Shown: positions 39,851 to 57,212, counted from the first letter of the stretch. The stretch: 64,000 nt of DNA from a virus (IMGVR_UViG_3300025707_000004); one strand, 5' to 3'. Made by a program: numbers and translations. Notes: generated by a model not told the origin, from the sequence alone.

Positions 39851-40360
39851 CTAATAATCCTGATGCATCTCGTCGGCGCCCTCTTTCTCGGGCTTCGTGA
39901 CGGTTTTGGTGGGGAGGACCAGTCGCCAAGGGCCTAGCGGATGCGGATGGTGGGGGTGGTCATCAGCCTCATCGGCGGCGTGGAGGTAGGCGCGGTACGT
40001 GGGCGCTTCGCGGCCCATCACTAGCGGGATACGGGCCATAAGGTCCGAGCCCTCCACCATATGGAACCACACCCCATCAGTCATCTGGACACGTTCGCCC
40101 TTGTCAAGGGCGAGGGTGTACCCCTGGTCACCGTAGGTGTCGAGCACGACACGAGCAAAGACGCGGGGGATACTGGAGTCGGACGCATCAGGGAAGAGCA
40201 ACATCCGCGGGGCGGTGTGTGCGGGGTGTATGGAAGGCTGGAGGGAGTCCGGCCCATCGACCTCCACCCAGGCGGTGAAGGCCGTGGGTGCAGGGGTATG
40301 CGCGCTGTCGTAGTAACCCACCGGGGTGTCTATGGGTGTAAGGGCTGGCAGGAGGCTCAT
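39851..40360 (-). CDS. Hypothetical protein ending EMHQDY
   Basis: ATGA coupling; C-terminal tag. Confidence 0.6.
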   Translation of the reverse strand: MSLLPALTPIDTPVGYYDSAHTPAPTAFTAWVEVDGPDSLQPSIHPAHTAPRMLLFPDASDSSIPRVFARVVLDTYGDQGYTLALDKGERVQMTDGVWFHMVEGSDLMARIPLVMGREAPTYRAYLHAADEADDHPHHPHPLGPWRLVLPTKTVTKPEKEGADEMHQDY

Positions 40361-40863
40361 CCCCTTGCCTCGAAGAAGTGGCGGAAGCGCTTCAAGGCTC
40401 CGGTCATCTGGACCAGGGCGCAAGGGGGTCGGCAGGTCCCCTGCGCACCCCCGCAGGCGACACAGTTCGGTGCGTCGTTCTGCCACACGTCGTTGACGAC
40501 TGTCTGCAGGACCGCGTACTCCTTGTAGAAGGGCTCCCGCTCCTGGATGGCGCGGTCGACGGCCCGCCGCGCGCGGTCAACGATTAGGAGGGGGCAGGTC
40601 GAGCGGTGCTGCTGAGTTGGTGATGTTCTGCAGAGTCTGCAGAGCTTGCTACCGCTGTGACCGGCGTAATAGCCCCCCATCTCACGAGTGAGGTTGCGTA
40701 GCTCTTTGTTGAGCCCGTCCCAGCCAATGAGGAGCATCCGGTAGTAGATGGAGCGGGCCTCCTTCTGCGGCTCCTGCTCGGGCGCCGTGCTGACCTGGAC
40801 CTCGGGTAGGTCGTCTTCAGGGCCGAGCAGCTCCTCGTAGACGTCTTCTCCGATGTTGCTCAT
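40357..40863 (-). CDS. Protein with two CxxC...HxxxC-like Zn motifs
   Basis: CRLC..HRSTC and CVAC..CRPPC. Confidence 0.6.
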   Translation of the reverse strand: MSNIGEDVYEELLGPEDDLPEVQVSTAPEQEPQKEARSIYYRMLLIGWDGLNKELRNLTREMGGYYAGHSGSKLCRLCRTSPTQQHRSTCPLLIVDRARRAVDRAIQEREPFYKEYAVLQTVVNDVWQNDAPNCVACGGAQGTCRPPCALVQMTGALKRFRHFFEARG

Positions 40864-41087
40864 GACTTCTCTTCCTCTTGGTCTAGCCGCTCAAGCTCTT
40901 CTCGCCAGAGGCGGTTGCAGGGCTGGCGGAGGCAAATGTATTCAGGGCCCACCCGTTCGGCGGGGACGTGAGAGTCGTGGACGTCCAGGGTCTTGTTGCA
41001 GGCACTGGCACCCTCGTCGGTTCGAGCGTGGATGACGAGAGGCCCCCGCTTGTAGGTGCTTCTGCTGAACTTGGGCGGAGTAGCCAT
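40860..41087 (-). CDS. Small Cys/His protein
   Basis: H..C...C...C pattern. Confidence 0.5.
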   Translation of the reverse strand: MATPPKFSRSTYKRGPLVIHARTDEGASACNKTLDVHDSHVPAERVGPEYICLRQPCNRLWREELERLDQEEEKS

Positions 41088-41108
41088 TACGTATTCCTTG
41101 CTTCTTTC

Positions 41109-41267
41109 CTACTTCAACTTCAACTTCTCCGCGGGTACCAAGGTGCCCTTCCCGCAGTAGCGGCAGATTGGCTTGAAGTACTGGTTTTTCGGGTCAGTGC
41201 TGAAGCCTGTGCGCTGCTCGCGGTGGCATTTGGGGCACCTGCACTTGGTGAATACGCTACCGCGCAT
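41109..41267 (-). CDS. Zn-ribbon micro-protein
   Basis: Manual translation: CPKC and CRYC. Confidence 0.5.
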   Translation of the reverse strand: MRGSVFTKCRCPKCHREQRTGFSTDPKNQYFKPICRYCGKGTLVPAEKLKLK

Positions 41268-41293
41268 TGGTCGAGCCCAACCATCGCGTCATG

Positions 41294-41764
41294 TCACCAC
41301 TCGTATTTCGGCAGGTGGTCGTAGACGTTCTCGTCGCGGTCGAACTCGATGAGGCGGGCACCGCATTCGAGGGCCATCTTCCACACGGGGATGAGCCACT
41401 CAGGCAAATGCTCGCCCAACTCATCCGCCTCCAGTACCTGGACGAACACGAGGTAGCCGTAGCTGCCCAGCTTCCCCGTGCTCTCAATGGTTCGTAGGTC
41501 CCCGAAGTCGGGGTCGTTGCTCGGCATGTGGCCCGTGCTCAGCGAGAGCATCACGCAGGCTGGGCGCATGTCGTCGGCGACGTGCATCAGCTTGATGGCG
41601 AGCGCTTCGACGTCATCGGTCTCAACGTCTCGGGGGATGGGGACATCGAAGACGGGCGCCACGTCGCCGTCTACCTCTAATGGCTCTTCGACGGTGACGT
41701 GGTTGATGAAGGCGTTTTCGGCGGTGTGGAAGTCGAGCAGCTTGCGGTTCCGGGGGTACTTCAT
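41294..41764 (-). CDS. Hypothetical protein
   Basis: Coupled ORF. Confidence 0.6.
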   Translation of the reverse strand: MKYPRNRKLLDFHTAENAFINHVTVEEPLEVDGDVAPVFDVPIPRDVETDDVEALAIKLMHVADDMRPACVMLSLSTGHMPSNDPDFGDLRTIESTGKLGSYGYLVFVQVLEADELGEHLPEWLIPVWKMALECGARLIEFDRDENVYDHLPKYEW

Positions 41765-42072
41765 TGGCCCTCTCCAACACGCACCACCCGGTGCCCGCCA
41801 TCGCTGTCGTCACCACCATCGGCGGCGTCTGCGTCAGCCCGAGCGGTCAACCGGTTGACCGCCTTGATGATGGGGTGGGGCACCCTGCCTGGAGGTTCCC
41901 GCAGCTCAGGTACGGGAGCGTCGTACTCAGTGGCGTGGCCGGCGACGTACCCCTCCGGGTCCGTCCAGAAGTCGGCGTCGGCGACGGCGGCTTCCTCTTC
42001 GTAGTCGTAGGGGTTGCAGTCCCCTGTGACGTACCACTCGCCCGTTCGCCCGGTCTTGTTGAAGTAGCTCAC
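41761..42072 (-). CDS. Hypothetical acidic protein
   Basis: Coupled ORF. Confidence 0.5.
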   Translation of the reverse strand: MSYFNKTGRTGEWYVTGDCNPYDYEEEAAVADADFWTDPEGYVAGHATEYDAPVPELREPPGRVPHPIIKAVNRLTARADADAADGGDDSDGGHRVVRVGEGQ

Positions 42073-43603: not shown

Positions 43604-43632
43604 TCGTTTCTCCCTATTAGCGGCTAATACGT

Positions 43633-43749
43633 TCAGACGTCCATGTGGTAGTCGGCGGAGAGCAAGACGGCTTCGTAGGGGCTGGTGGTTGCTGGGTACA
43701 CTTTGCGGCGGTGGACGACCCGGTCGCCGTTGTTGTATTCGCTGGGCAT
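43633..43749 (-). CDS. 38-aa truncated paralog ending DYHMDV
   Basis: Manual translation MPSEYNNGDRVVHRR...ADYHMDV; AGGAGG RBS. Confidence 0.6.
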   Translation of the reverse strand: MPSEYNNGDRVVHRRKVYPATTSPYEAVLLSADYHMDV

Positions 43750-43756
43750 GGGCCTC

Positions 43757-43969
43757 CTATACGTCTACGTGGTAATCGAGGTGCAGAAACCCGGGGCGCA
43801 CTTCAAAGTCGCCCTCGTTCCACCACGAGATCATTCCTGAGTCCAGATTGACTCGCCAAACGGTCATGCCGACCGCTGCGCTGTAGTGGGCGGAAACCAG
43901 CGTGGCTTCCTGTGGGCGTTTGAACATGTCTTTGCGGTGGGCCCGGTCTCCCGGCTTGGGATTAGACAT
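43757..43969 (-). CDS. SH3-like paralog ending DYHVDV
   Basis: GDRA...VWRV...WW. Confidence 0.65.
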   Translation of the reverse strand: MSNPKPGDRAHRKDMFKRPQEATLVSAHYSAAVGMTVWRVNLDSGMISWWNEGDFEVRPGFLHLDYHVDV

Positions 43970-44171
43970 CGACGTGGTACTCGTCGGGGCAAACCTCGAA
44001 GCGGGATTGGTACCACCACGTTTCACGGCCCGTAGGTTCGAGTAACACCAGCCAAGTGACCTCTTGGCCTACTTCACTCCAGCGGGAGTGTGACAGCGTG
44101 CCGTATCGGTAGGTGCTGGGGTCAACGTGCCTGGGTCGGCGGACACGTTGTCCGGTCGTGAAGCTAGACAT
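43962..44171 (-). CDS. SH3-like paralog ending EYHVDV
   Basis: GQRV...TWLV...WWY. Confidence 0.65.
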   Translation of the reverse strand: MSSFTTGQRVRRPRHVDPSTYRYGTLSHSRWSEVGQEVTWLVLLEPTGRETWWYQSRFEVCPDEYHVDV

Positions 44172-44418
44172 CGATGTGAAACTCCGGCTCGGCTGGCGGC
44201 GGCTCCCAAGCACGCTTGAAGACGAACTCCCCGTGGTACCACCACTCGTAGGAGTCGGCAGGGATGCCGTCGTTCTGTCCCAGCTTCTGGACACGCCAAG
44301 CACCCGGATTTGCGCTCTCGCTCTGCCAACCCAGCCGAGCACGGAGCGGAGTGCCGTCGGGGTAGAAGCGTTCGGTGTGTTCGACGATGTCGTTCCTTGC
44401 AAATGCGTCGCGGGGCAT
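44164..44418 (-). CDS. SH3-like paralog ending EFHIDV
   Basis: NDIVEH...AWRV...EWW. Confidence 0.7.
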   Translation of the reverse strand: MPRDAFARNDIVEHTERFYPDGTPLRARLGWQSESANPGAWRVQKLGQNDGIPADSYEWWYHGEFVFKRAWEPPPAEPEFHIDV

Positions 44419-44429
44419 AGCGGCTCCTT

Positions 44430-44678
44430 TCAGATGTCCTCGTGAAATTCGGGGCGCTCGCTAAGTGGCGCTTCGGCCAACGTGAACTCCCGGGTAGACC
44501 ACCACTCGAAGTAGTCGACGTGGACACCGTCTATGTCGATGCGCTGGATACGCCAAGCAGGAGCGCTGTCGTCCTTGCTGATGAAGCGCAGCAGACCACG
44601 AAGGGGCGTGCCGCTGCCGGTGGAGTAGCAGCGGTAGTTGTGTTTAACGATGTCGCCGCGGGCATATCCGTCAGCCAT
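44430..44678 (-). CDS. SH3-like paralog ending EFHEDI
   Basis: GDIVKH...AWRI...EWW. Confidence 0.7.
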   Translation of the reverse strand: MADGYARGDIVKHNYRCYSTGSGTPLRGLLRFISKDDSAPAWRIQRIDIDGVHVDYFEWWSTREFTLAEAPLSERPEFHEDI

Positions 44679-44689
44679 GGTTATGTCCC

Positions 44690-44913
44690 TCAAATGTCCT
44701 CGTGGTATTGGGGCGGGGTCGTAACAGCGGCGGAGCTAACGACGGTGAAGGCACTGGAGCACCACCAGTCCTCTTGGTGCCAACTGAGGCCGATGATGCG
44801 GACTCTCCAGTAGGTGGCGTTGCCGGAGTTTTTGTAAAGCAGCTCCCCCTCACGCCGTTGCCACTGTTGTCGTACTGCCGCTCCCTGTGCTCGACGATGT
44901 CACCCTTCTTCAC
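44690..44913 (-). pseudogene. Frameshifted SH3-like paralog ending QYHEDI
   Basis: N- and C-terminal halves lie in different frames across a G5 run near 44845. Confidence 0.6.
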
Positions 44914-46110: not shown

Positions 46111-46506
46111 GGGCTAAGAAGAGCGCGGGGAGAAGCCCCCGCACCCATTGACCACACCGACCAGTATTAGTCGGTGTAGTTCTGAAGGCGGTCACGGCAC
46201 GCAGCCATGGACACCCGGGGTCGAGGCGGTGCTGGAGCATCGCCGCAACCTCTCCCGGCGCCACCTTTTCCCCGGAGGGATAGGTGCCGCGGTCCAGCAA
46301 CTGGCCGTGCTCCCGCCAATCGGCGAGCAAGTACTCCAGCTCGCCGACGACCTCCGAGCGACGGCACCCTTCGAGACCCTCGGCGGAGCCAACCAGCTCC
46401 CCCTTGTAACTAGACATATCGAACCTTTCTGCAGCAACGCTGCATTGGGAGGCGTAGATGCCCCCGTTCATAGTTCTTATCCCAAAAAGCACTAGCGGGT
46501 TTGCAG

Positions 46507-46941
46507 CTAGTCCTCTCGGTTGATGCCGTCGCCTTCCGCTTCGTCCTCAGCGCTCACATGGAGTACCGCGATTTCCACCACGCTGGACGTGTCGACCTTT
46601 CCCCAAGCGGCGTCGAGGGCGACTTCGGCGGCGTGCTCCGCGGTCTTGGCTTGGACGACCACGTCCTCCGAGTGCCAGCCCTCGTGGCGCAGGATGTAGC
46701 AGAGCTGGACGTCCCAGTTGACTTTGTCGAGCGCCAGCTCTTCCTTGATTTCCTCCCACCGCTTCTCGGCGCGAATGAACAGGGTGTGCACCTCAGCGGT
46801 GGTGAGGTCCATGGACGCCGCGACCTCGGCGATGATGTCGGTGTCCGGCGCGATGGCCGCACGTAGCTCGGCGAGTAGGCGGGGGAATTGAACGTCGTTG
46901 TCTGCCCAGGCGGTGCTCGCGCCGGGCTTCTTCTTAGGCAT
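46507..46941 (-). CDS. Hypothetical phage protein
   Basis: AGGA RBS; QFPRLLAEL motif. Confidence 0.6.
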   Translation of the reverse strand: MPKKKPGASTAWADNDVQFPRLLAELRAAIAPDTDIIAEVAASMDLTTAEVHTLFIRAEKRWEEIKEELALDKVNWDVQLCYILRHEGWHSEDVVVQAKTAEHAAEVALDAAWGKVDTSSVVEIAVLHVSAEDEAEGDGINRED

Positions 46942-46978
46942 GGGTTATCCTGTGGGTGACTATCGGGAGTAATGGCAG

Positions 46979-47200
46979 ATGAGTGGCGATACTGAGGCTC
47001 TTCCGGTCGCAATGAAGAGAAAGGTCGTGCTCGGCTTCATGTCGGCATTCGGCCTGATTGTTTGGTGGGGTTGGGGCAACATGACTGAGGCGGCCACCCT
47101 GCGCGTTGAAAACGCTACGATGGGGCAACAGGTTGAGGTCTGCGCTGACATCCAGAAGCAGGCCGTGAAGCTCATCGTTAAGTTGAGGGAAACACCATGA
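46979..47200 (+). CDS. Small membrane protein
   Basis: One TM segment. Confidence 0.5.
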   Translation: MSGDTEALPVAMKRKVVLGFMSAFGLIVWWGWGNMTEAATLRVENATMGQQVEVCADIQKQAVKLIVKLRETP

Positions 47201-47562
47201 TTCGGCAAATTCTACTCGCCAGTCTCATCGTCTACGGGTCGCTGGGCATCTTCCTCTACACGACCACGCTAGGTGCCAAAGCCCAGCCAGCGCCGGTCGT
47301 CACGCCCGAGGCACCCATCATCGTGGAGGAGCCCGGTCGCGTGCGGGGCTTCCTGGAGATGCTCAAGACCAATGAGGGGCGTGCGGTGCTCTTGGTGAAG
47401 CTCGCTGAGCTGCGCGAGGCCACGCTCTTGATGGCCCCCTCCCCTCCCGCGCCGCCGGGCGAGGTGGATAAGCGTCAAGAGATGCTCAGGGAGGTGGACG
47501 AGCTGGAGAACTTGCTCCAGCAGTACCATCAGGTGGCGCCTGAGTCCAAGAAGGGCGGCTGA
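47197..47562 (+). CDS. Membrane-anchored/exported protein
   Basis: N-terminal TM; ATGA overlap. Confidence 0.55.
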   Translation: MIRQILLASLIVYGSLGIFLYTTTLGAKAQPAPVVTPEAPIIVEEPGRVRGFLEMLKTNEGRAVLLVKLAELREATLLMAPSPPAPPGEVDKRQEMLREVDELENLLQQYHQVAPESKKGG

Positions 47563-47565
47563 CCG

Positions 47566-47832: not shown

Positions 47833-47835
47833 TGG

Positions 47836-48153: not shown

Positions 48154-48167
48154 GGGCGGTTCCTTGT

Positions 48168-49628
48168 TTAGGGAGCGGGGTCGTACTCGATGTGAAGCCG
48201 GGGTGCGTGCTTGTGCTCCTTGCCGACCTCACCGTTGGTGGAGACTGCGAGGCGCAAGCCACCAGCCTCCACAGAGCTAATGATGAACGACATGGCGTTG
48301 CCCGGCTTCCACCCGGGGGCGTCCACACGGGCCTGCACCAATGCCGAGATGTCGGCGCTTCGCTGGTCCTCTGGCGGGGCTCGGGTCTGCCAAATCCCAG
48401 GCACCCACTCGATGGCTTCCGCGGTCTTCACCCTGCCGCTGATGTTGTCGCGGTCTCGACTGAAAACGGCGGAGTTCGGAACGGCTTCACCATGGATAGC
48501 CATCTTCATCGGCTTGTTGGGCTCACCAGTGCTGAACTGGATATACGCCTTGGCGATCTTGACCCCAGCCGGAATCGGAAGCCGGCGGAAGCGAATCCCG
48601 ATGTACTGGTTGAACTGCTTGTCCTGCGTCAGCTCCAAGTCGCTGCTGCCGAGGGACATACGACCACTGCGCTCCTCAGCATCGTCACGACCCGCGGCTA
48701 CCCGGATGTCGAGGACCACGGTGTCGACACGCCACTCCTTGTAGAGCATGAGAGCGAAGCCGTTGGCGTTGCTGTCGTCACAGAGGACGAGGAGGTTACC
48801 CATGATGGCGATGCACTCCAGGTTGCCCCCCTTCGGCGAAGCCCAAGTGCGGAGCGAGTCGAACGTGCCGTTGGTCGACTTGAGGCTCACCTCCTCCAGT
48901 GAGTTCCCGCCGACGTTGTGCCAGACGTAGAGCTTGCCGCTTGAGCGATTGAACTCCAGACCCGATGACTCACGGGTGTTGGTGCCGTACGCACCGATGA
49001 AGCTGACCACGTCGCTGTCGACACCAAGGTCAAATGCGTAGACCTTGCCCCCGTTCTGGTGAGCAACGAGCATCAAGCCGCCCATGCCGTTGCTCGACTT
49101 GGGGAACGCCGTGCCGTCAGGCTTCGTGAAGCCGGACTTGGCGAGCCACTCATCAGGGACGAAAGCGATGCCCTCAGGACCAGCTCCGTTGTACGCCGGC
49201 ACAAACGGGCGGATGTTCCACTGGTGCAGCAGCTTCACGTCCCCGTATTGGGACGTGTCGTACTTGCGGATGAGGTGCTCCCGCTCCGCCATGATGTAGA
49301 CGCTGTTCTCGTTGTAGTCGACCTGGGTGATGCCCTCGCAGTCACCACCAGACTTCCAGTAGGCCCGCGCCTCGTCCTGGTAGTCGACGACATACGAGCC
49401 CTCACCGTCTGGGACCATGGCGACGAATTGGCCGCCATTGTCGGCAACCCATAAGCGCTTGGTGACCGGGTTGAAGTGCGCGCCCGACACGTCGCTACCG
49501 AAGCCGTCGTCGAGTTCGGTGAGGTTGGTAGAGGTCTCCCACGTCTCAGCGGGCCAGGGGTCCCCGCTCGCGGTTCCGACCAAGAGGCCAAAGGTCAGCA
49601 GGGTCATGATTGCGGTTTTCATCGTCAC
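48168..49628 (-). CDS. Secreted protein: YjiK/SdiA-regulated-like beta-propeller plus C-terminal beta-sandwich
   Basis: Signal peptide; repeated EGI/SGL blades; DDAEE..SSDLEL..GIRF..IP.G domain. Confidence 0.7.
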   Translation of the reverse strand: MTMKTAIMTLLTFGLLVGTASGDPWPAETWETSTNLTELDDGFGSDVSGAHFNPVTKRLWVADNGGQFVAMVPDGEGSYVVDYQDEARAYWKSGGDCEGITQVDYNENSVYIMAEREHLIRKYDTSQYGDVKLLHQWNIRPFVPAYNGAGPEGIAFVPDEWLAKSGFTKPDGTAFPKSSNGMGGLMLVAHQNGGKVYAFDLGVDSDVVSFIGAYGTNTRESSGLEFNRSSGKLYVWHNVGGNSLEEVSLKSTNGTFDSLRTWASPKGGNLECIAIMGNLLVLCDDSNANGFALMLYKEWRVDTVVLDIRVAAGRDDAEERSGRMSLGSSDLELTQDKQFNQYIGIRFRRLPIPAGVKIAKAYIQFSTGEPNKPMKMAIHGEAVPNSAVFSRDRDNISGRVKTAEAIEWVPGIWQTRAPPEDQRSADISALVQARVDAPGWKPGNAMSFIISSVEAGGLRLAVSTNGEVGKEHKHAPRLHIEYDPAP

Positions 49629-49895
49629 TCCGTATCCGTTAGCGGCCCCGATTCGGGCTTCACGGACACGGTATCACTCGTCTTCGGCTTCGGTGACTGT
49701 CACTTCGATGCTGATTGGCCCAAGGGGCACTTCTCGGTGCCCTTCGAGCCACGTACGTGCCGTTCCAAGCGAACCCCCAGTTCAGACGCCGGAGCTGCCT
49801 CTTGTTGATGGCTAGCTTGTTCCCAGCTTCCGCAGCCGCAGCCCTCTTACCGATGGTGGCGTCCCAGTTGAGGATTTCTTCTTCTTCGGCGTCGT

Positions 49896-50252
49896 TCATG
49901 GCTCACCTAGTAGGGTGCCTTTGTAGGCAATGGCTTTACCGAGCAGCTCAGGGATGTCCACCAGGGTGGCTTCGGTCAGCTCAAGGGTCTCTTGGCCATC
50001 GTCTTCCTCTGAGGGTGTCTGGACGATGGCGATTAGGGTCAGTGCGCCGTTGTCCTCCCGGTCAATCCAGACGATGCAGTCCAACGGGCCTTTGTACTCG
50101 TAGAAGCTCTGGGTGCGCCCGGGGACGAGCCCCTCGCTGAAGAGCCACTCTTCCTTCTCCCAGTTGTGGATGTTTAGGACCATCTCGGCGCGAGCGATGG
50201 CCACGGGGGTTCTCATTGGCGGGTCTTCCCACCCAAGTCTCGGCAGCTTCAC
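49896..50252 (-). CDS. Hypothetical protein
   Basis: Coupled ORF. Confidence 0.5.
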   Translation of the reverse strand: MKLPRLGWEDPPMRTPVAIARAEMVLNIHNWEKEEWLFSEGLVPGRTQSFYEYKGPLDCIVWIDREDNGALTLIAIVQTPSEEDDGQETLELTEATLVDIPELLGKAIAYKGTLLGEP

Positions 50253-50414
50253 TAGCTGTCCCTTTCTAGGTCCCGTAACACGTCTTCGACATCGTCGTCA
50301 CTGCGTGGGTCAACGGGGATGGCCCCGAAGGTTACGAGGTGCGGCTCTGCCCACTCAGGGAATGGGGGCAGGCCGCGTCTTTGAGGGAGTTTGATGTCCT
50401 TACTCATGGCTTTC

Positions 50415-50918
50415 CTAGCGGTAGTGGGTGCAAGCCGCCCCATCGGCGTTGTCGTTCATGCTGGCATCCGCGTTTTCCCGCACCTCAGCGCAGGCGGTTG
50501 CGCCCACCTTTGTGGCATGGATGCAGACCTGATTGTTCAGGTTGGGGTTCTCGTGGCGCCGCATGTCGCAGACCCGCCAGTCCTTGTGGTTTCGGATGGG
50601 GTCCCAGCTGCAGCGAACGACGTAGAAGCGCTCACCCTTGTGCTCGTCCTCAGCCTCCCGCTCGCGCCACCAGTCGGACACGAAGTCGCGGGCTTCTTGG
50701 ATTGTGCCGCACTCGTCGGCTATTCCACGGGACAGGAAGAACATGTCGTCTTCATGGCCCACGAAGGCAAGGGGCCATACGTGGCTGGGCTCGCCGTCAG
50801 CAGTGCAGTCTACGATGGGCGTGGAGAAGGCTTGGCCCCCTGAGCCTGTCATGGGAATCGTGGCGGGGCCGCCCCGGAGGGTGGCCGAGTTGGCGTAAAC
50901 GAGGTAGGTCTCTTTCAT
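50415..50918 (-). CDS. Hypothetical protein
   Basis: ATGA coupling. Confidence 0.55.
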   Translation of the reverse strand: MKETYLVYANSATLRGGPATIPMTGSGGQAFSTPIVDCTADGEPSHVWPLAFVGHEDDMFFLSRGIADECGTIQEARDFVSDWWREREAEDEHKGERFYVVRCSWDPIRNHKDWRVCDMRRHENPNLNNQVCIHATKVGATACAEVRENADASMNDNADGAACTHYR

Positions 50919-51190
50919 GTCTCGTCCTCGTCAGGCGCAAGGCGCAGCAGAGGGGTCTCGGTGGCGCGGCACAGAATCCAGCCGCTCTCGGCGGCCTCAT
51001 CGGTTGCCCCGAAGGTGTCCAAACCCTCGATGGCCTTTTCTTTCGAGGCGAAGAGGCCCACGAAGGGGTGCTCGTGCTTGTGCGGGTTGCGCCAGGGGTA
51101 GAGGAGACGGTCTTCGCCGTCGACATGCACGAGTTCGCGCCAGACGTAGTGGGTTTCGGGCTCGGAGAGGTTGTCGGTGGCTTGCTTCAT
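50915..51190 (-). CDS. Hypothetical protein
   Basis: AGGAG RBS. Confidence 0.55.
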   Translation of the reverse strand: MKQATDNLSEPETHYVWRELVHVDGEDRLLYPWRNPHKHEHPFVGLFASKEKAIEGLDTFGATDEAAESGWILCRATETPLLRLAPDEDET

Positions 51191-51197
51191 GGGGCTC

Positions 51198-51266
51198 CTA
51201 GATATCGATGTGGTATTCGGCGCACGCTACGGCTCGACGTGCGAATACGAGGTCAGGGTCAGTCAT
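51198..51266 (-). CDS. 22-aa micro-ORF ending EYHIDI
   Basis: MTDPDLVFARRAVACAEYHIDI; ATGA overlap with the upstream stop. Confidence 0.45.
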   Translation of the reverse strand: MTDPDLVFARRAVACAEYHIDI

Positions 51267-51568
51267 CCCGGCATCCCCCCGATGGACCCAGAAGGCCCTC
51301 CCCCTCCATCCCAGCAGTTACCGCAGTAGCCCCCGCTGATGGCGGGTTGGCCGCATGAGCAGGCAGGGGCGCTGCTGGCTTGAGGGAGGTAGCCGCCGGC
51401 AAGGCACGTTTCGTACAGGAGGTGCAGACGGCCATCCGACCCTGCCCTGCTCCGCAAGTACACGCCAATCCGCGCTGCCACGATGCCCAAGTCGGGGTCG
51501 GAATGACCCACGCTCCGCCTGATGGTGCGGAGGGCGGTCAGCATCTCTTCAGGTGTCGGTTTACTCAT
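51263..51568 (-). CDS. Small Cys-rich protein
   Basis: CSCG...YCGNC. Confidence 0.5.
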   Translation of the reverse strand: MSKPTPEEMLTALRTIRRSVGHSDPDLGIVAARIGVYLRSRAGSDGRLHLLYETCLAGGYLPQASSAPACSCGQPAISGGYCGNCWDGGGGPSGSIGGMPG

Positions 51569-52041
51569 CGAACCGTCACGACATGCGACGACAGCGCAGC
51601 TCGCCAATAAGCCACGGTGTCCTCTGGCACGGTGCCGCCAATCTGGTTGTAAGCGAACTTGTAGACGGTGCTCGCCATTTCGTCCATGCCGCACAGAGCG
51701 AGGCACCGAATCACCCTCGTGATTCGGAGATGGTTGTGGTCGTACTCGTTGACCCACTCATGCGAGTTCTCCAGGAAGGAGAGGAAGCGCCCGGTGAGCA
51801 TGATGAGGCGAGCCTGCATGAGCGGATTGCTCTTCATCTCGTCGTAGAAGTCATCTGCGGCGGCAGGGCTGGCGGGCACAGCACGGCTGGGCTCGGGAAT
51901 AGGGAACGCCCACTGAATGTGGTTGTGGTTGCGCTCCCACCAATCGTCGCTGTTGGTGAAGTAGATGGGGAGGCCGCGGTCTGCACCGTCGAAGCCGTTG
52001 TCTTGCCAGAAATCGAGTAGGTTTCTGTCGTCGTCAGTCAT
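51565..52041 (-). CDS. OGFr (opioid growth factor receptor) conserved-domain protein
   Basis: HNHIQWAFP..EPS and HNHLRITRVIRCL; AAGGAG RBS. Confidence 0.8.
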   Translation of the reverse strand: MTDDDRNLLDFWQDNGFDGADRGLPIYFTNSDDWWERNHNHIQWAFPIPEPSRAVPASPAAADDFYDEMKSNPLMQARLIMLTGRFLSFLENSHEWVNEYDHNHLRITRVIRCLALCGMDEMASTVYKFAYNQIGGTVPEDTVAYWRAALSSHVVTVR

Positions 52042-52070
52042 GGGTTTGTTCTCCTTGCCGTTATTAGCGG

Positions 52071-52352
52071 CTAATAGTCGACATGCATCTCTTCGGGCTT
52101 GGGGCGAGGCCACGGCTTGGGGCCGGCGTCGATGCGGACGTGGTCGTAGCCGCACTCGCCGCGACAGGTAAGTACCCCGAGGTCGGAGAGCGACACAGTG
52201 CCGGCCTCGCAGAGCGGGCATTCGTCTCCGTGGTCGCAGGCTATGAAGGCGGTGTAGAGGCGTTGAGAGACGGTGGCGTTGTCGGGGCCCCCGATGAAGG
52301 GAAACAACTCTTCTTCACCGTCGTCGTAGGGGATTCGACCATCGTCGTCCAT
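52071..52352 (-). CDS. Zn-ribbon protein ending EMHVDY
   Basis: CPLC and CRGEC; C-terminal tag. Confidence 0.6.
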   Translation of the reverse strand: MDDDGRIPYDDGEEELFPFIGGPDNATVSQRLYTAFIACDHGDECPLCEAGTVSLSDLGVLTCRGECGYDHVRIDAGPKPWPRPKPEEMHVDY

Positions 52353-52511
52353 GAGGGAGGCTCCTGGTGTGGCTGTGCGGGAGTTATACCCTGACGGGCT
52401 CGTAGGGCTTATGCCTAAAAGGGGCGCGCGTTTGCGGGGGGCTAAGAAGAAAGGGCGGTGTTCCCACCACCCCTCTCCCTAGGCACTATGTCCCGAGTTA
52501 GCAGCGATTAG

Positions 52512-52994
52512 TTAGTTTTCGTCGAACTGCAACCAGATGGCTGCAGCCTCTCCTGCGGCCGTCAGCACCGCGCCCGGGGGGCACGGGTGGACGACCAGCA
52601 TCCGGCCCACCACTGCACGGAGCAGCGGGCGTGCATCGAAGTCCCCGTGCAGGTCGGCCTGCACGGAGTGGAGGAGCGCGCTGGCCTCCTCGGCATTCGT
52701 CACGCCCGCTTCACAGCGGGCACGCAGGTCGGCCTTGCGGTCGGCCGTCCTCTTCTCCGCCGCCGCCCCCTTCGCCGCCTCTTCTGCCTCCCACGCCGCC
52801 AAAGCGACGCCCTCGGGGCCGCCCAGCCACTCGGCCAGGGCGGCCTCGGCCGCCTCTCCCCCCTGCTGCGCGGCCCGCTCCAGGCGGCCTCGCTCCTGTC
52901 CTGCGTGAAGGCGGTTGAACGCCTTCGCCTGCGCCGCGTTTCGGCGCTTCTCGTCCGCCATCTCGGCGGCTACCTTGGGGTCTTCCCAATGCAT
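52512..52994 (-). CDS. Ala-rich helical hypothetical protein
   Basis: AAGGAG RBS downstream of the promoter motif at 53035. Confidence 0.6.
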   Translation of the reverse strand: MHWEDPKVAAEMADEKRRNAAQAKAFNRLHAGQERGRLERAAQQGGEAAEAALAEWLGGPEGVALAAWEAEEAAKGAAAEKRTADRKADLRARCEAGVTNAEEASALLHSVQADLHGDFDARPLLRAVVGRMLVVHPCPPGAVLTAAGEAAAIWLQFDEN

Positions 52995-53377
52995 GTCGAA
53001 CTCCTTCGGTTAAGTAGGTTGTCTGTCCATAGTTCTTATCCCCAAAACGGCCACGTGTTTTGCATTATTAGCGGCTAATAATGGGGCGGAAATACCAGCC
53101 CCCGCTCCCCACACCTATGCAGCGTGTAGCACCGCTGCTGAGACGTTAGAGCGCCTCAAGGTGTGGGGGACGGGAAGCTCCCCTTAGCTCAGGGCGCATG
53201 TCATACCCTGAGCCTCTGCACGTTATATTTAGGAACGGGAGGGGTTACTCCGAGACCCGGAAAGTCCTCGTAGCGCAGTAGGCGGTGTTATGCCTACCTT
53301 GGACCAGCGCGGGGAGGTCAGCACGTACAGGCACTGTACTGGGGACAATTCGCCAGCGGCGGGTCCGTCCCATCTGA

Positions 53378-53602
53378 TTACTCGTCGAAATGCATCTCTT
53401 GGTCTGCGGGCTCTGTGGCCAAGACGACCGGCTCGTACCCGCCTTGTAGCCAACTCTTGATCTTGAGGTCGACGGTGTCCTTCCCCCCGCCACCCGCGGA
53501 AATGAGGGGAAGGACGTCATCCCGTAGCACCTGGGTGCGCTCTCGCACCAGGAACTCGTCCATGAACTTCGCCCATTCGGGGAAGTTGCTGCCGTAAGCC
53601 AT
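53378..53602 (-). CDS. Hypothetical protein ending EMHFDE
   Basis: ORF with tag variant. Confidence 0.55.
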   Translation of the reverse strand: MAYGSNFPEWAKFMDEFLVRERTQVLRDDVLPLISAGGGGKDTVDLKIKSWLQGGYEPVVLATEPADQEMHFDE

Positions 53603-53605
53603 GAC

Positions 53606-54991
53606 CTACTCCAAGACTCGGGTTGAGGGAATGTACGGCGAGCCATCAGGCCCCCGCAGGTGCCGTTTGACGCGGACGGTCTTGAAGGCAATCCACTCAT
53701 CACCCTCCCGAGGACCAATACCACGATTGGCACGGCTCTCGGCTTGGAGCATTTCCTGGACGTACTCGGGGAGGTGCCCATCGGTGATGAGCGCGTACTC
53801 CAGCTCCACCAGCCGCGCTCGCTTCGCACTGTCGAGGTTGGCCAGTTTCCCGCGGCGGATGAAGAGCCGCTCGTGGGCAGACACCGAGTGCTGGTAGATG
53901 AGTTCGCCGCGGTCGGGTCCCTCACCACTGCCTTCGCTGTCTGCCCAGCCGTAGTCCGCCGCTTGGGCTACCCCTGGGAGAGGGGAGAGTGCGGTAGAGA
54001 CACTCACCCGGTAGAAGGGCTTCGGCATCGTCCGGGGACACACCGGTCGCTTCTTCCACGCACGCCTCTCACGCAACGACGCCCGCGTCTTTACCACTTC
54101 GCCCCGGCGGTAGTAGATGCGCTGGAGGAGCGAATAGACGGCGAGGCAGAGTATCGGGCTTTTGCGTGACCACTCGCCATCTCGGAAGATGGACACTACC
54201 CGGACGGTCAGCACCCCCATCGAAGCGCGCTCACCGACGAGGGCCAACGCTACCACGCTGTTCTCGTTGACGACAAAGCCACAGATGCTCATCAGGGCGT
54301 GGTCAAAGCTCTCGGCGTGTTCGACCGAAGCCGCCCGGCGAAGAGCCCCGCAGAGCAGGGGACTCGGAAGCGTGTCCATCAGCATCCACTCCGAGGTCTC
54401 TGAGGGGCCGAGCAGCTGGAAGACGAGAGGCTTCTCCGTTGTGATGAACATCGACGGCGCCGCGAGCGGAGGAATGCCGTCGATGTCGTCGAGCACCTTC
54501 TGAGCCTTGTTGTAGATGGCCCAGATGTGGTCAGTCCACTGCTGGGTGGAGGTCATCGTGTCCCACGCACCTGACGTGAAGATGTAGCGACCAATACCGT
54601 CGAAGAGGTCATCGAGCCCGGCACCAAGAGCATCCACGGGGACCTCGTACAAGTCGGCCGCCACGAGCGCGGCGCGGATGGCCTCAGGCAGCCCACTCCG
54701 CTCAGTGAGCGGTTGCAGGCTGTCGAGGTCCAGGTCTAGGCCGCTCAAGATAGCGTGTGCCCACATCAGGCGGTCGACGGCGGTGCTGTTGGGGTGGACG
54801 ATGGCCGGCAGGTGCTCAGGGGTGATGTAGGTTTCCGCGCCGTCGTCCCCGACGATGCGGGAGGCAACCAGGGTCATGGCCGTATCGACATAGTTGTTCT
54901 CGTGAAACCTCGGCCACTTACGGTCGTCCTCGGCATGCGTCGTGATGACGCGCTTGTTTCGGCCGGCGCCGACAATCCTAGTGCTGGACAT
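53606..54991 (-). CDS. Hypothetical phage protein
   Basis: 461 aa; C-terminal HSVSAHER...HLRGP motif. Confidence 0.65.
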   Translation of the reverse strand: MSSTRIVGAGRNKRVITTHAEDDRKWPRFHENNYVDTAMTLVASRIVGDDGAETYITPEHLPAIVHPNSTAVDRLMWAHAILSGLDLDLDSLQPLTERSGLPEAIRAALVAADLYEVPVDALGAGLDDLFDGIGRYIFTSGAWDTMTSTQQWTDHIWAIYNKAQKVLDDIDGIPPLAAPSMFITTEKPLVFQLLGPSETSEWMLMDTLPSPLLCGALRRAASVEHAESFDHALMSICGFVVNENSVVALALVGERASMGVLTVRVVSIFRDGEWSRKSPILCLAVYSLLQRIYYRRGEVVKTRASLRERRAWKKRPVCPRTMPKPFYRVSVSTALSPLPGVAQAADYGWADSEGSGEGPDRGELIYQHSVSAHERLFIRRGKLANLDSAKRARLVELEYALITDGHLPEYVQEMLQAESRANRGIGPREGDEWIAFKTVRVKRHLRGPDGSPYIPSTRVLE

Positions 54992-55033
54992 GGTTACTTT
55001 CCCTTCGCTTCAGTGGTTAGTGGTTGCGGGAGG

Positions 55034-55504
55034 CTATGCGGCCACCGCGTACTTGAGAGTGCGACCAGCCAGCAAGAGCGGGCGAGCCACATCGTCGAGG
55101 TCTTGGACCAGGACTTGCCCCAGGCCAGTTGAGACGAGTGTACGCGCCACGCTGAGGGTCGAGGGAGCGATGTACGCCCCGATGTGCGAGCGGATGAGTC
55201 GCTCCTTCAGCGTCCGGATAGCCGTACTTGCCCACGGCGGAAGGCCGATGGTGAAGGTGGTCATCGCGTCAGGGTCCCCATCGGGCAGGTTCGGGAGCCG
55301 CCCCATGAGGGCCAGTAGCCCCTCGGTGCTGAACCGGTGGTCGCCAGCCGCCAGCAGAAACCGCAGGAACGTCGCATCGGCGATGTTCTTCCGGCGGTCA
55401 TTCACTGGGGGTGGGCAGTAGACCGACTCGACGAAGCCGGGGCGGGCGGTGTAGTAGGCGTGGTAGAGCGCCCCGTCCAGGCGGATGTTGATCTTGGCGG
55501 ACAT
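55034..55504 (-). CDS. Tandem RHH-like paralog
   Basis: AAGGAG RBS; FTIGLP..AIRTLK..VARTLVSTGL. Confidence 0.5.
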   Translation of the reverse strand: MSAKINIRLDGALYHAYYTARPGFVESVYCPPPVNDRRKNIADATFLRFLLAAGDHRFSTEGLLALMGRLPNLPDGDPDAMTTFTIGLPPWASTAIRTLKERLIRSHIGAYIAPSTLSVARTLVSTGLGQVLVQDLDDVARPLLLAGRTLKYAVAA

Positions 55505-55524
55505 GGAATCTCCTTGTTTGGCGG

Positions 55525-55860
55525 CTAATCGCCGGTCTTGGCCGTAGCCAGCGCGGAGGAGAGGGTCTCCTTGTTCGCCTGCATGTGGCTGAGGTTGCAG
55601 ACGGGCCGCTTCGACCCGCGGGTCTCCGCGATGATGAAGGAGCCCCACGGGATGCCGGAAAATGACGTGTTGCGAAGCGAAGCCACGACCAGCTCGCCGT
55701 GAGACTCGTCGTTGTCGTACGTCTTCTTGTCTTCAGGGCGGAGCATGGCCCAGATGCCTTCGCCGTTGGGGTCGCCGGTGCTGTTGAGGTTGACCTTGAT
55801 GAGTTCGCCGCCGTCGAAGTCCTCGAACTCCACGTCTTGGCCGTTATAGGTCAGGTGCAT
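55525..55860 (-). CDS. Hypothetical protein
   Basis: AGGAG RBS; GEGIWA. Confidence 0.6.
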   Translation of the reverse strand: MHLTYNGQDVEFEDFDGGELIKVNLNSTGDPNGEGIWAMLRPEDKKTYDNDESHGELVVASLRNTSFSGIPWGSFIIAETRGSKRPVCNLSHMQANKETLSSALATAKTGD

Positions 55861-55896
55861 GCGCTGTTCTCCTGGTTTCTGTGGTGTTTGAAGCCC

Positions 55897-56310
55897 CTAC
55901 ACGTCCGAAGGCATGCCGAGGTCTGGGTGCCGCTTCAAAAGGCGTATGGCCTCTTTGCGCTCGTTGAGCCGGCGCTGCTCCTTCTCTTCCTCCTTCCTTT
56001 TTCTGATGGCCTGTTTCTCAGCCTCATGGGCAGCCGCGCAGAACGCCACCATGTCGTCGAGTGTCATGTGCAGCTCATTCAAGCTGACGGTGAGGTAGGA
56101 CAGGCTGGCATCACGGTCAATGGGGCAGAAGGTCAGCTCGATGTGGCTGTCCCCTTCTGGCACCCAGGAGCTGAGTTCCAGGCCGTAACCCCACTGACGC
56201 GTAGCGGGGTGTTTGCTGCAGATGAGCCTCGACGCGAACGCTCGGAGGAAGTCGTTGAGTTCATCGGCGCTGGCGACAGCAGCTGCGAGTTGCTTGGGGG
56301 TCATGTTCAC
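55897..56310 (-). CDS. Hypothetical protein
   Basis: AAGGAG RBS. Confidence 0.55.
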   Translation of the reverse strand: MNMTPKQLAAAVASADELNDFLRAFASRLICSKHPATRQWGYGLELSSWVPEGDSHIELTFCPIDRDASLSYLTVSLNELHMTLDDMVAFCAAAHEAEKQAIRKRKEEEKEQRRLNERKEAIRLLKRHPDLGMPSDV

Positions 56311-56313
56311 TCC

Positions 56314-56628
56314 TTAGATGTCTACGTGCATTTCGTCGTCTGCACCGGTTGGCGCCTTCGGGATGTGCCCCGCGTGCTGGAACCAGCGGCCGGTGGAGTC
56401 CTGGACGCTCTGAGGGTCCAGGCTGAAGTCCTCCATGACGTAGCCGCCGCACATATTGTCGATTGCTTCGAGGATGTCCGAGGAGCAGTCATCCGGGTAA
56501 TCGCCGAGGACCATGTCCAGCTCGTTGAGGTACTCGCTGATTGCGATGGCGCGCTCTTCACGCTCATCGTCCCAGTCACCATCCCTTACGCCCCGGTTGA
56601 ACAGCTCCTCAGACGTCATCGCACTCAT
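56314..56628 (-). CDS. Acidic protein ending EMHVDI
   Basis: C-terminal tag. Confidence 0.6.
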   Translation of the reverse strand: MSAMTSEELFNRGVRDGDWDDEREERAIAISEYLNELDMVLGDYPDDCSSDILEAIDNMCGGYVMEDFSLDPQSVQDSTGRWFQHAGHIPKAPTGADDEMHVDI

Positions 56629-56770
56629 GTTGGTCCCCTTCCCAGTCCCACTCGTGCCCGCACGTGTTGCAGTACGCCTCGTGGCCGCAGCCGGGCGGGT
56701 CTGGGAGGTCTATGTCGTCGGAGCCGCAAGCTGGGCACGTCTCCCGCTCTTCACCGGCCGGCTCAGACAT
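56609..56770 (-). CDS. Zn-ribbon micro-protein
   Basis: Manual translation: CPACGS and CNTCGHEW. Confidence 0.5.
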   Translation of the reverse strand: MSEPAGEERETCPACGSDDIDLPDPPGCGHEAYCNTCGHEWDWEGDQHECDDV

Positions 56771-57212
56771 CCGTGTGCTCCTGCGGGAGTGCGGCCTCCA
56801 CCAGCGCGTCCGCCTTGCCCTTCAGGTACCAGTACGTGAGCGTGGACTGAATGACGGGATTGGGAGCTTCATTATCCCCGCCCTCGTACGCCCCGCCCAC
56901 CCCGTACAGCACGCTAACGTGCTTGCCGAGGCCGAGGGTGCTCGCCTTGATGTCTGCCCTGACGGCGCTTTGCTCGGGGAGCTGGGGGTGCTCGGCCCGC
57001 CACAGCCGGCAAAAGACGCGCATCATGACTTGGTGCGGCTTGTCCTCGTGCCACTCGACGACGTAGGGCTTGTCCTTGAAGTCCCAGCGGCGCCCGCTCA
57101 TGTAGTAAGTGTAGAGGTCTTGGATGTCCTCGTCGGTGAGGTCGTCACCGCATTTGCGCTCGCGAGGATTGCCCTTGTCGAATACCTCGAATGCGTGGTC
57201 GGGAAGTCCCAT
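56763..57212 (-). CDS. Hypothetical protein ending QEHTDV
   Basis: AGGAG RBS downstream of the promoter motif at 57305. Confidence 0.6.
   Translation of the reverse strand: MGLPDHAFEVFDKGNPRERKCGDDLTDEDIQDLYTYYMSGRRWDFKDKPYVVEWHEDKPHQVMMRVFCRLWRAEHPQLPEQSAVRADIKASTLGLGKHVSVLYGVGGAYEGGDNEAPNPVIQSTLTYWYLKGKADALVEAALPQEHTDV

What the first reader, a model, noticed from the sequence alone, without database searches (positions are those of the whole stretch)
39851..57212. Shared C-terminal H-x-D-[VIY] tag on about 12 small, mostly unrelated early proteins
Seen C-termini: EMHQDY (39851), DYHMDV (43633), DYHVDV (43757), EYHVDV (43962), EFHIDV (44164), EFHEDI (44430), QYHEDI (44690), EYHIDI (51198), EMHVDY (52071), EMHFDE (53378), EMHVDI (56314) and QEHTDV (56763). 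The consensus is [ED]-[YFM]-H-x-D-hydrophobic-COOH, often after a Pro/acidic linker. It occurs on SH3-like, Zn-ribbon, acidic and micro-ORF bodies alike. Inference: a portable docking or degron signal recruiting diverse cargo to one hub (compare SSB tails or PDZ/TPR ligands). The hub could be the phage AAA+/Ubl machinery or a host protein. Caveats: in 3 cases 'DV*' overlaps the next ATG, and 6 of the 12 are paralogs, so the independent cases number about 6-7.
Basis: partly seen in the sequence, partly recalled or inferred. Interest (0 to 1): 0.85.

Follow-up and report, generated by a model that had tools for sequence, protein, structure and literature searches.

The report
Shared C-terminal tag on phage proteins
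About 19 small, mostly unrelated accessory proteins of an uncultured 188-kb marine phage end in the same six-residue tail (acidic, aromatic or Met, His, any, Asp, one last residue), which behaves like an address label read from the free protein end by a partner that is still unknown, and which I could not find described anywhere.

Summary
All 12 listed C-termini are present. The strict motif [YFM]-H-x-D-[VIY] occurs 10 times directly before a stop codon and never internally in any of the six frames of the 64-kb window. Wobble bases and stop codons vary freely, so the constraint is on the peptide and not on DNA or RNA. Walking along the source scaffold added 7 more tagged genes, one of them on the opposite strand. 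In total, 18 intact genes plus 1 frameshifted gene out of about 62 carry the tag, all within a 32-kb accessory zone; none lies in the structural, Ubl or AAA+ regions. At least 13 tagged bodies are unrelated to each other and all are ORFans. Closer relatives keep the tag through linker rewriting, gene fusion, domain duplication and gene turnover. A distant relative (48% GC) that shares the AAA+/Ubl module shows no tag in the 39 kb examined. The tail is modelled as flexible.

My best reading is a portable C-terminal docking or degron signal for one reader specific to this lineage. This scan noted the same tag in an overlapping window of this genome, and analogous tags with different sequences in at least 8 other large phages.

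The parts
39851..40360 (-). 169-aa ORFan ending EMHQDY. The final TAT and the TAG stop form the left arm of a 15-bp palindrome.
43633..43749 (-). 38-aa protein ending DYHMDV. It consists of the N-terminal piece of the small-domain family joined directly to the tag.
43757..43969 (-). 70-aa small-domain paralog ending DYHVDV.
43962..44171 (-). 69-aa small-domain paralog ending EYHVDV. Its GAT-GTC codons contain the ATG of the next gene.
44164..44418 (-). 84-aa small-domain paralog ending EFHIDV. It is modelled as a five-strand beta barrel (residues 11-67) with a flexible tail (residues 68-84).
44430..44681 (-). 83-aa small-domain paralog ending EFHEDI.
44690..44913 (-). Frameshifted paralog. It starts at GTG 44913 in one frame and ends QYHEDI in another, after a 1-nt loss in a G run near 44850. 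The intact ortholog is L011 3158-3382.
51198..51266 (-). 22-aa micro-ORF ending EYHIDI. Its start overlaps the upstream stop as ATGA.
52071..52352 (-). 93-aa Cys-rich (zinc-ribbon-like) ORFan ending EMHVDY. Relative L025 has a 205-aa two-repeat version ending AMHVDE.
53378..53602 (-). 74-aa ORFan ending EMHFDE, a variant with an acidic last residue.
56314..56628 (-). 104-aa acidic ORFan ending EMHVDI. The L025 ortholog is 93% identical with the same tag.
56763..57212 (-). 149-aa ORFan ending QEHTDV, a variant with Glu at -4. The L025 ortholog is 75% identical with an identical tag.
63513..64000 (-). C-terminal part of a 568-aa protein ending DYHFDL-WTL. The DNA reads GAC CTC TGG ACG CTA TAG, consistent with a former TGA stop changed to TGG, which buries a tag under three added residues.
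39842..39856 (.). Copy of the genome-wide 15-bp palindrome TATTAG-NNN-CTAATA. Other copies next to tags lie at 43615-43629 and 52062-52076. The adjacency is incidental, since there are 15 copies across the window.
46470..62971 (-). Span holding six copies of the promoter-like motif GG[CG]ATAAGAACTAT, at 46470, 53029, 57299, 60439, 62627 and 62958. All are on the minus strand, and several lie about 25 nt after a palindrome copy. They mark the transcription units of the tag zone. The seventh match in the search (39854-39867) is the tag DNA of the 39851 gene itself.

Best explanation
The tail [E/D]-[Y/F/M]-H-x-D-x-COOH is a portable peptide signal specific to this phage lineage. It hangs on a flexible linker at the very end of about 30% of the small accessory proteins in one 32-kb, separately transcribed zone of an uncultured 188-kb marine phage. 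That zone also holds an AcrVA2-like gene and an HD-domain gene, so it is probably a host-takeover or counter-defence zone.

Most likely one reader protein captures the free C-terminus. His at -3 and Asp at -1 lie on one face of an extended strand and, together with the terminal carboxylate exactly one residue further on, are the recognised groups. The residues at -4, -2 and 0 form the mostly hydrophobic other face.

What is shown: the tag is real, is selected at the peptide level, is strictly terminal, sits on unrelated bodies, survives gene turnover, and decays or is masked when it becomes internal.

What is inferred: that one common reader exists (about 0.6). My leading guess for the consequence is a shared fate rather than a shared function. 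That would mean hand-over to an ATP-driven unfoldase or protease, directly or through an adaptor, so that these small proteins are short-lived or are cleared together (about 0.3). Recruitment to a common scaffold comes next (about 0.25).
For: - Terminal enrichment: 10 terminal against 0 internal strict matches in six frames. Six of 92 conservative gene ends carry the core against 0.15 expected, P = 4e-9.
- Peptide level: synonymous codons and all three stop codons are used freely (CAC 14/CAT 5, GAC 12/GAT 7).
- Gene orientation: one tagged gene lies on the opposite strand, so the tag follows gene direction.
- Unrelated carriers: bodies are unrelated by all-against-all BLASTP without the tail, and none has a Pfam or PHROG family.
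- Census: 18 of 62 genes in the zone are tagged, with median length 78 aa against 142 aa for untagged genes. None was found in window 1-39.8 kb or in record 27.6-45.4 kb.
- Family conservation: in the small-domain family the tag's H and D are invariant, like the core Trp residues, while the linker varies from 0 to about 12 residues.
- Unbiased search: a profile with the tag removed, run against 1.84 billion proteins, found only lineage members, and all of them are tagged.
- Relatives: they keep the tag on rewritten linkers. In relative L011 the whole array is tagged and a two-module fusion has a decayed internal copy (RRFHVDD) alongside a proper terminal DYHVDI. In relative L025 two proteins with no homolog in our phage carry the tag, as does a duplicated zinc-ribbon homolog.
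- Flexible tail: residues 68-84 are modelled as coil with pLDDT 55-63, behind a confident barrel.
- Precedent: a transferable five-residue C-terminal degron on a small protein, LarA of Caulobacter, is read by Lon (PMC10665427).
Against: - No reader was found, and no peptide-binding domain (PDZ, TPR or similar) appeared among about 60 phage proteins scanned.
- The chemistry is unlike known bacterial C-terminal degrons, which are non-polar or end in His. In LarA a terminal Asp abolishes recognition.
- The last residue tolerates V, I, Y, E and R, which is odd for a hydrophobic end pocket.
- Micro-ORFs of 20-38 aa carry the tag. This fits neither model neatly and could reflect truncation remnants.
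- Only about half of the scaffold (record 27.6-117.1 kb) was censused.
- Expression timing is unknown.
Confidence: 0.6

Rival explanations
1. Adaptor handle for the phage's own ubiquitin-like (Ubl-E2-JAB-E1) or AAA+ machinery. The variable bodies would bind different targets, and the common tail would plug them into the conjugation or unfolding machine, much as F-box or poxvirus PRANC proteins plug into a cullin ligase.
For: The phage encodes ThiF/E1, a JAB protein and a Ycf46-type AAA+ with a pore-loop-like SYLG motif. A design with many variable small proteins sharing one handle fits substrate-receptor logic.
Against: A distant relative keeps the whole Ubl and AAA+/DUF2997/radical-SAM/DUF1257 block in the same order but has no H-x-D-x endings on about 45 genes in 39 kb, including its AcrVA2-like/HD accessory zone. 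The tags lie 20 kb or more from these operons.
Confidence: 0.08
2. Sorting signal. The tail would address the proteins to a place, such as the virion (for injection into the next host) or a phage-built compartment, in the way PTS1, HDEL or encapsulin cargo peptides work.
For: Strictly terminal position, portability and restriction to small accessory proteins. Analogous private tags occur in other large phages of this scan.
Against: No compartment-shell gene was seen in the part examined. The tagged genes lie in a zone with a different promoter-like motif from the structural genes.
Confidence: 0.1
3. Processing or conjugation site. The single variable last residue would be a removable cap. Its loss would expose ...H-x-D-COOH for ligation or further modification, as in ubiquitin precursors or Pup.
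For: Exactly one residue always follows the invariant Asp, and that residue is the most variable position of the tag: V, I, Y, E or R.
Against: There is no Gly-Gly, and the modelled carrier is an SH3-like barrel, not a beta-grasp. No carboxypeptidase or dedicated ligase was found near the zone. Among the Y/F-class tags the last residue is nearly always V or I, which points to recognition rather than disposal.
Confidence: 0.06
4. Nucleic-acid signal. The conserved ending would really be a DNA or RNA element (translational coupling site, ribosome-binding site, promoter, terminator or recombination joint) that happens to be read as peptide.
For: In 3 window cases GAT-GTC-stop contains the next gene's ATG, and in 2 cases TAT-TAG is the arm of the 15-bp palindrome. 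GAT is used more often than the genome average.
Against: Third codon positions, the x codon and the stop codon vary freely while first and second positions are fixed. Most tags have no overlapping start, and the downstream sequences are unrelated. Tags occur at operon ends and on the opposite strand. The pattern is never found in the other five frames.
Confidence: 0.03
5. Relic without function. All carriers would descend from one ancestral gene, or were built on one 3' end by recombination, and the tail would simply not have decayed yet.
For: Six of the window's twelve are paralogs in a tandem array. Micro-ORFs could be truncation remnants.
Against: The bodies and linkers have diverged beyond recognition while H and D stay invariant. 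Relatives with 25-55% body identity keep the tag. An internalised copy has begun to decay. New unrelated genes in a relative carry it.
Confidence: 0.05

Closest known systems
C-terminal degrons of bacterial AAA+ proteases: ssrA tail (ClpXP/ClpAP/FtsH), SulA Sul20C, and the five-residue LarA degron read by Lon (PMC10665427)
   Same: A very short signal at the extreme C-terminus on an unstructured tail. It is transferable between unrelated proteins, and LarA is itself a small protein.
   Different: The sequence class differs. Known signals are non-polar (LAA) or V-x-V-H, and Asp at the end abolishes LarA recognition. Here Asp at -1 and His at -3 are invariant and the last residue may be E or R. 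About 19 phage proteins share the signal, and no protease link is shown.
Hub-docking tails of replication proteins: E. coli SSB C-terminal tip, T7 gp2.5 and gp4 acidic tails, and T4 proteins that bind the gp45 clamp by their C-termini (from my own knowledge and from the notes returned)
   Same: Several different proteins of one phage or cell end in the same short acidic/hydrophobic tail, which docks on one hub through the free carboxylate.
   Different: Those carriers are known DNA-handling proteins, and their last aromatic or hydrophobic residue is the key contact. Here the carriers are ORFan accessory proteins, the key residues are His and Asp, and no hub is known.
Poxvirus ankyrin/PRANC and cellular F-box proteins
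   Same: Many variable proteins share a C-terminal handle that plugs into one machine, and this phage does encode a ubiquitin-like system.
   Different: Those handles are folded domains of about 40 residues, not six-residue tails. The link to the Ubl system is not supported here.
C-terminal sorting signals (PTS1 -SKL, HDEL/KDEL) and encapsulin cargo-loading peptides
   Same: A few terminal residues address unrelated cargo to one receptor.
   Different: Those systems are eukaryotic organelles or bacterial nanocompartments with known receptors. No compartment or receptor is known for this phage.
Other shared C-terminal tags noted by this scan in large phages (e1-173140, e1-4772764, e1-5321841, e1-3271877, e1-5345117, e1-5699044, e1-3433680)
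   Same: The anatomy is the same: a private short C-terminal tail on a tenth to a fifth or more of the small accessory genes of a large phage, conserved in close relatives, with no reader identified.
   Different: The tag sequence is different in every lineage. These are unpublished AI notes, not established knowledge.

Membership tests
AAA+ protease C-terminal degrons (ssrA, Sul20C, LarA) | Signal sits at the extreme C-terminus and needs a free end | tested here: met
   10 terminal against 0 internal matches. The internalised copy in the L011 fusion has decayed. The 568-aa protein has a copy buried under a 3-residue extension.
AAA+ protease C-terminal degrons (ssrA, Sul20C, LarA) | Transferable between unrelated proteins | tested here: met
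   Met in the evolutionary sense only. At least 13 unrelated bodies carry it, and so do new genes in relative L025.
AAA+ protease C-terminal degrons (ssrA, Sul20C, LarA) | Non-polar or His-terminal sequence (LAA; V-x-V-H) | tested here: not met
   The tag is [ED]-[YFM]-H-x-D-x with invariant Asp at -1. Asp at the end abolishes LarA recognition (PMC10665427).
AAA+ protease C-terminal degrons (ssrA, Sul20C, LarA) | Recognised and degraded by an AAA+ protease | not testable with these tools
   The host is unknown and no stability data exist.
Hub-docking acidic tails (SSB tip, T7 gp2.5/gp4, T4 clamp binders) | Acidic run ending in one conserved hydrophobic or aromatic last residue | tested here: inconclusive
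   Acidic residues occur at -5 and -1, and the last residue is mostly V, I or Y. However, E or R ends 5 of about 23 tags counted in the phage and in relative L025.
Hub-docking acidic tails (SSB tip, T7 gp2.5/gp4, T4 clamp binders) | Carriers are replication or repair proteins that meet at a known hub | tested here: not met
   No carrier has a Pfam or PHROG family. None of the larger annotated genes (AAA+, ThiF, HD, RecA-like, ParB-like) carries the tag.
PDZ-binding C-terminal motifs | Specificity carried by positions 0 and -2, with -1 free | tested here: not met
   Here -1 (Asp) and -3 (His) are invariant, while -2 is the free position.
PDZ-binding C-terminal motifs | A PDZ-domain reader is present | tested here: inconclusive
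   No PDZ hit among about 60 phage proteins scanned. Half of the genome and the host were not examined.
Ubiquitin-like modifiers with a capped C-terminus | Gly-Gly at the mature end and a beta-grasp fold | tested here: not met
   The tags contain no Gly-Gly. The one family modelled is a five-strand SH3-like barrel.
Virion cargo signals (T4 capsid targeting sequence) | N-terminal leader removed by the prohead protease; carriers found in the virion | tested here: not met
   This signal is C-terminal. Presence in the virion is not testable here. A separate N-terminal leader family is reported for this genome only in an unchecked note.

The most novel reading that the evidence does not exclude
Large phages run private protein-addressing systems. 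Each lineage would have its own short C-terminal 'postcode' (here H-x-D-x-COOH), read by a dedicated lineage-specific receptor. That receptor would collect a fifth to a third of the accessory proteins for one common fate, such as timed destruction, delivery to a machine, or delivery to a place. This tag would be one more instance of a general phage mechanism that has not been described.
Probability: 0.25. Interest if true: 0.9.

Novelty: new variant of a known kind. Interest (0 to 1): 0.66.

Why it matters
Short terminal tags that give unrelated proteins a common partner or fate are a basic principle of cell biology, as in ssrA, SSB tips, PTS1 and F-box proteins. No such system is described for the accessory 'dark matter' genes of phages.

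Here one six-residue tail labels about 30% of the genes in a counter-defence-type zone of an abundant marine phage, whose contigs occur in more than 50 sample blocks of the collection.
- a handle on about 19 ORFans at once;
- possibly a new host vulnerability or a phage timing mechanism;
- a compact, transferable tag for protein control in the (still unknown) host.

Several other large phages appear to have their own different tags, which suggests a general and testable phenomenon.

Tried and rejected
- Complex prediction of the phage AAA+ ATPase (41-row alignment) with the 84-aa tagged protein (10-row alignment): no verdict, score 0.00 against a mark of 0.32. This is not evidence either way.
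- Pattern scan of viral contigs for [DE]-Y-H-V-D-V-stop: 11 scattered single hits in unrelated, mostly low-GC contigs. Only four read as ORF ends, and no contig had several. The lineage is not in that collection.
- The same pattern in genome contigs: 59 scattered single hits across many phyla, with no clustering.
- The search for related loci with the 461-aa protein in viral contigs and in genome contigs: nothing. This gave no clue to the host.
- The genome search on the relative's record: the record is not held. The whole genome of the window is not held either.
- Pfam and PHROG scans of tagged proteins and of larger untagged zone proteins: no families.
- Atlas search of the 568-aa protein: no usable hit.
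- Literature searches for a shared C-terminal motif on phage early proteins, for jumbo-phage targeting signals, for short linear motifs in phages, and for Ycf46/DUF1257/DUF2997: nothing relevant.
- RNA evidence: no RNA holder listed among the sequencing runs.
- Foldseek of the small-domain model against the PDB: nothing at E <= 0.001.
- Walking the distant relative: 39 kb reached and no tag found. The remaining ~140 kb of that phage type (its AAA+ protein also occurs on a 179-kb contig) was not reached, so absence is not proven.

Full report
**What is in the sequence.** The strict pattern [YFM]-H-x-D-[VIY] occurs ten times immediately before a stop codon and not once internally in any of the six reading frames of the 64-kb window. 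All ten lie on the minus strand between 39.8 and 56.8 kb. I also tested a deliberately conservative gene set of 92 ORFs, which misses several short tagged genes. Six of those gene ends carry the core H-x-D-x, against 0.15 expected from 2000 within-protein shuffles (maximum 3; binomial P = 4e-9). The same four-residue pattern occurs internally 21 times where about 25 are expected. So only the terminal position is enriched.

**Peptide or nucleic acid.** The nineteen tag DNAs of this phage use synonymous codons freely: CAC 14 and CAT 5 for His; GAC 12 and GAT 7 for Asp; four different Val codons; two Ile codons; and all three stop codons. First and second codon positions are fixed. The sequences after the stop codons are unrelated to each other. 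One tagged gene lies on the opposite strand, so the tag follows gene orientation.

In the two tags ending in Tyr (39851, 52071), the TAT codon and the TAG stop form the arm of a 15-bp palindrome. That palindrome has 15 copies across the whole window, so it is not specific to tags. These overlaps explain some excess of GAT codons. They do not explain the invariant His or the aromatic/Met position, and most tags have no overlap at all.

**Corrections to the list.**
- The 44690 case is a paralog broken by a one-base loss in a G run. It starts at GTG 44913 in one frame and ends QYHEDI in another. With one more G it would read as the intact 74-aa ortholog found in a relative. Three separately assembled marine runs from two studies carry the same sequence with no differences, so this is not an assembly slip.
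- The 51198 case is a 22-aa micro-ORF whose start overlaps the upstream stop as ATGA.

**Extent.** The window is part of a 188,287-bp metagenomic scaffold, and contigs carrying its proteins occur in more than 50 blocks of the public collection. Walking beyond the window's right edge gave seven more tagged genes, ending EMHVDV, AMHADR, SEHIDV, DYHVDV, EYHTDV, LFHQDR and EVHTDV. No tags follow in the next 18 kb. The tag zone therefore spans about 32 kb. Within it, 18 intact genes plus the frameshifted one, out of about 62 public gene calls, carry the tag. Tagged proteins are small (median 78 aa, range 22-169) compared with a median of 142 aa for untagged neighbours. No tag occurs in the structural, Ubl, ParB or AAA+ part of the window. 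About 48% of the scaffold was examined.

The zone has its own promoter-like motif, GG[CG]ATAAGAACTAT. It matched seven times against 0.7 expected, always on the minus strand. One of the seven matches is the tag DNA of the 39851 gene itself. The zone is thus transcribed separately from the structural block, but 'early' remains unproven.

**Independence of the carriers.** After removal of the last eight residues, only two pairs among the 18 tagged proteins still match each other. Six window genes form one small-domain family. That leaves at least 13 unrelated bodies. None has a Pfam or PHROG family.

The small-domain protein is modelled as a five-strand barrel (residues 11-67, pLDDT 76-89) followed by a coil tail (residues 68-84, pLDDT 55-63) that carries the tag. 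Its nearest solved folds are SH3-like barrels (KOW, Tudor, PWWP, PsaE), but only at E 0.05-0.2 and TM about 0.5. 'SH3-like' is therefore plausible, not proven.

**Evolution.**
- A profile of the family with the tag cut off, searched against 1.84 billion representative proteins, found only members of this phage lineage, and every one of them ends in the tag.
- In the family alignment the tag's His and Asp are invariant, like the core tryptophans, while the linker varies from zero to about twelve residues.
- Two homologs have entirely different linkers and still end EFHEDV or EYHEDV.
- A 5-kb contig of a relative (L011) has the same gene order, and all six array members end in the tag. One is a fusion of two modules in which the now internal copy has decayed to RRFHVDD while the new end is DYHVDI.
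- A second relative contig (L025; its 461-aa protein is 91% identical) has orthologs with identical tags at 75% and 93% body identity. It also has a duplicated zinc-ribbon homolog of the 52071 protein that ends AMHVDE after an unrelated C-terminal half, two tagged proteins with no homolog in our phage, and another tagged micro-ORF.
- In our phage a 568-aa protein ends DYHFDL-WTL, with TGG where a TGA stop would have made a normal tag.

Together these show selection on the peptide, a requirement for the free end, and portability.

The phage AAA+ ATPase has homologs at 86%, 65% and about 45% identity on large contigs. The 45% relative has 48% GC and keeps the same order of E2-like, JAB, ThiF, ParB-like, AAA+, RecA-like, DUF2997, radical SAM and DUF1257 genes. 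It also has a counterpart accessory zone with an AcrVA2-like gene and an HD-domain gene. The AcrVA2-like hit there supports the atlas lead for our 461-aa protein. Yet none of its roughly 45 genes in the 39 kb examined ends in H-x-D-x, and no other shared ending is apparent.

So the tag is lineage-specific while the AAA+/Ubl block is shared. No peptide-binding domain was found among about 60 phage proteins scanned. Scans of viral and bacterial genome collections for the back-translated tag gave only scattered chance hits, and no host could be assigned.

**Mechanism.** The anatomy is that of a C-terminal short linear motif: a flexible linker followed by six residues whose alternate positions form a polar face (Glu -5, His -3, Asp -1) and a mostly hydrophobic face (-4, -2, 0). 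Exactly one residue always follows the invariant Asp. This fits capture of an extended strand together with its terminal carboxylate.

Because the carriers are unrelated and presumably act on different targets, a shared fate seems somewhat more likely than a shared functional partner. My leading guess (about 0.3) is hand-over to an unfoldase or protease. A transferable five-residue C-terminal degron on a small protein is known for Lon (LarA, PMC10665427). The chemistry here is clearly different, since Asp at the end kills the LarA signal, so a new reader or adaptor would be needed. Recruitment to a scaffold (about 0.25), sorting or packaging (about 0.1), an adaptor handle for the Ubl/AAA+ machine (about 0.08) and a capped processing site (about 0.06) remain open. 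A nucleic-acid signal (about 0.03) and a functionless relic (about 0.05) are unlikely.

**Novelty.** I found no description of this motif or of any such tag on phage accessory proteins. The principle of short C-terminal tags read by one partner is known, so I class this as a new variant of a known kind. This scan had already noted the same tag in an overlapping window of this genome, and analogous tags with different sequences in at least eight other large phages, none with an identified reader. If these are instances of one general phage addressing mechanism, the interest would be high.

Noticed in passing
window 53606-54991 (-): The nearest protein-atlas clusters of this 461-aa ORFan are viral and partly annotated AcrVA2-like (PF26125, score 0.95). 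The counterpart gene in a distant relative (L035 14212-15813) has that Pfam hit on record. It may be an anti-CRISPR-type gene sitting among the tagged genes.
   Followed up: partly
window 48168-49628 (-): 486-aa protein with a clear N-terminal signal peptide and no known family. It is conserved in relative L025 (12440-13906). A secreted protein encoded by a phage is unusual.
   Followed up: no
window 45060-46022 (-); L011 669-2597: An HD_4 (RelA/SpoT-type hydrolase) domain is fused to a C-terminal domain in this phage. In relative L011 the same two parts are separate genes with a 239-aa gene between them.
   Followed up: no
window 46470, 53029, 57299, 60439, 62627, 62958 (-): Promoter-like motif GG[CG]ATAAGAACTAT, found on the minus strand only and often about 25 nt downstream of a copy of the 15-bp palindrome. 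It is probably the promoter class of the accessory zone, possibly read by the phage's own RNA polymerase.
   Followed up: partly
window-wide, e.g. 11220, 15661, 20846, 22367, 27951, 34859, 39842, 43615, 52062, 53066: The 15-bp palindrome TATTAG-NNN-CTAATA has 15 copies (12 perfect) against 0 expected, often at gene or operon ends.
   Followed up: partly
window 44840-44860 (-): A G5 run where G6 would restore the frame of a small-domain paralog. The loss is fixed in three independently assembled marine runs. It is either a pseudogene or a slippery homopolymer switch.
   Followed up: partly
L031/L033/L035 (ENA ERZ17174936 NODE_152821, 48% GC): A distant relative shares the Ubl-E2-JAB-ThiF, ParB-like, AAA+, RecA-like, DUF2997, radical SAM and DUF1257 gene order with this 62%-GC phage. 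This suggests a family of roughly 150-190 kb marine phages spanning very different base compositions.
   Followed up: partly
L011 4057-4497: A two-module fusion of small-domain genes with a decaying internal tag copy (RRFHVDD). It is a natural experiment showing that the tag needs a free end.
   Followed up: yes
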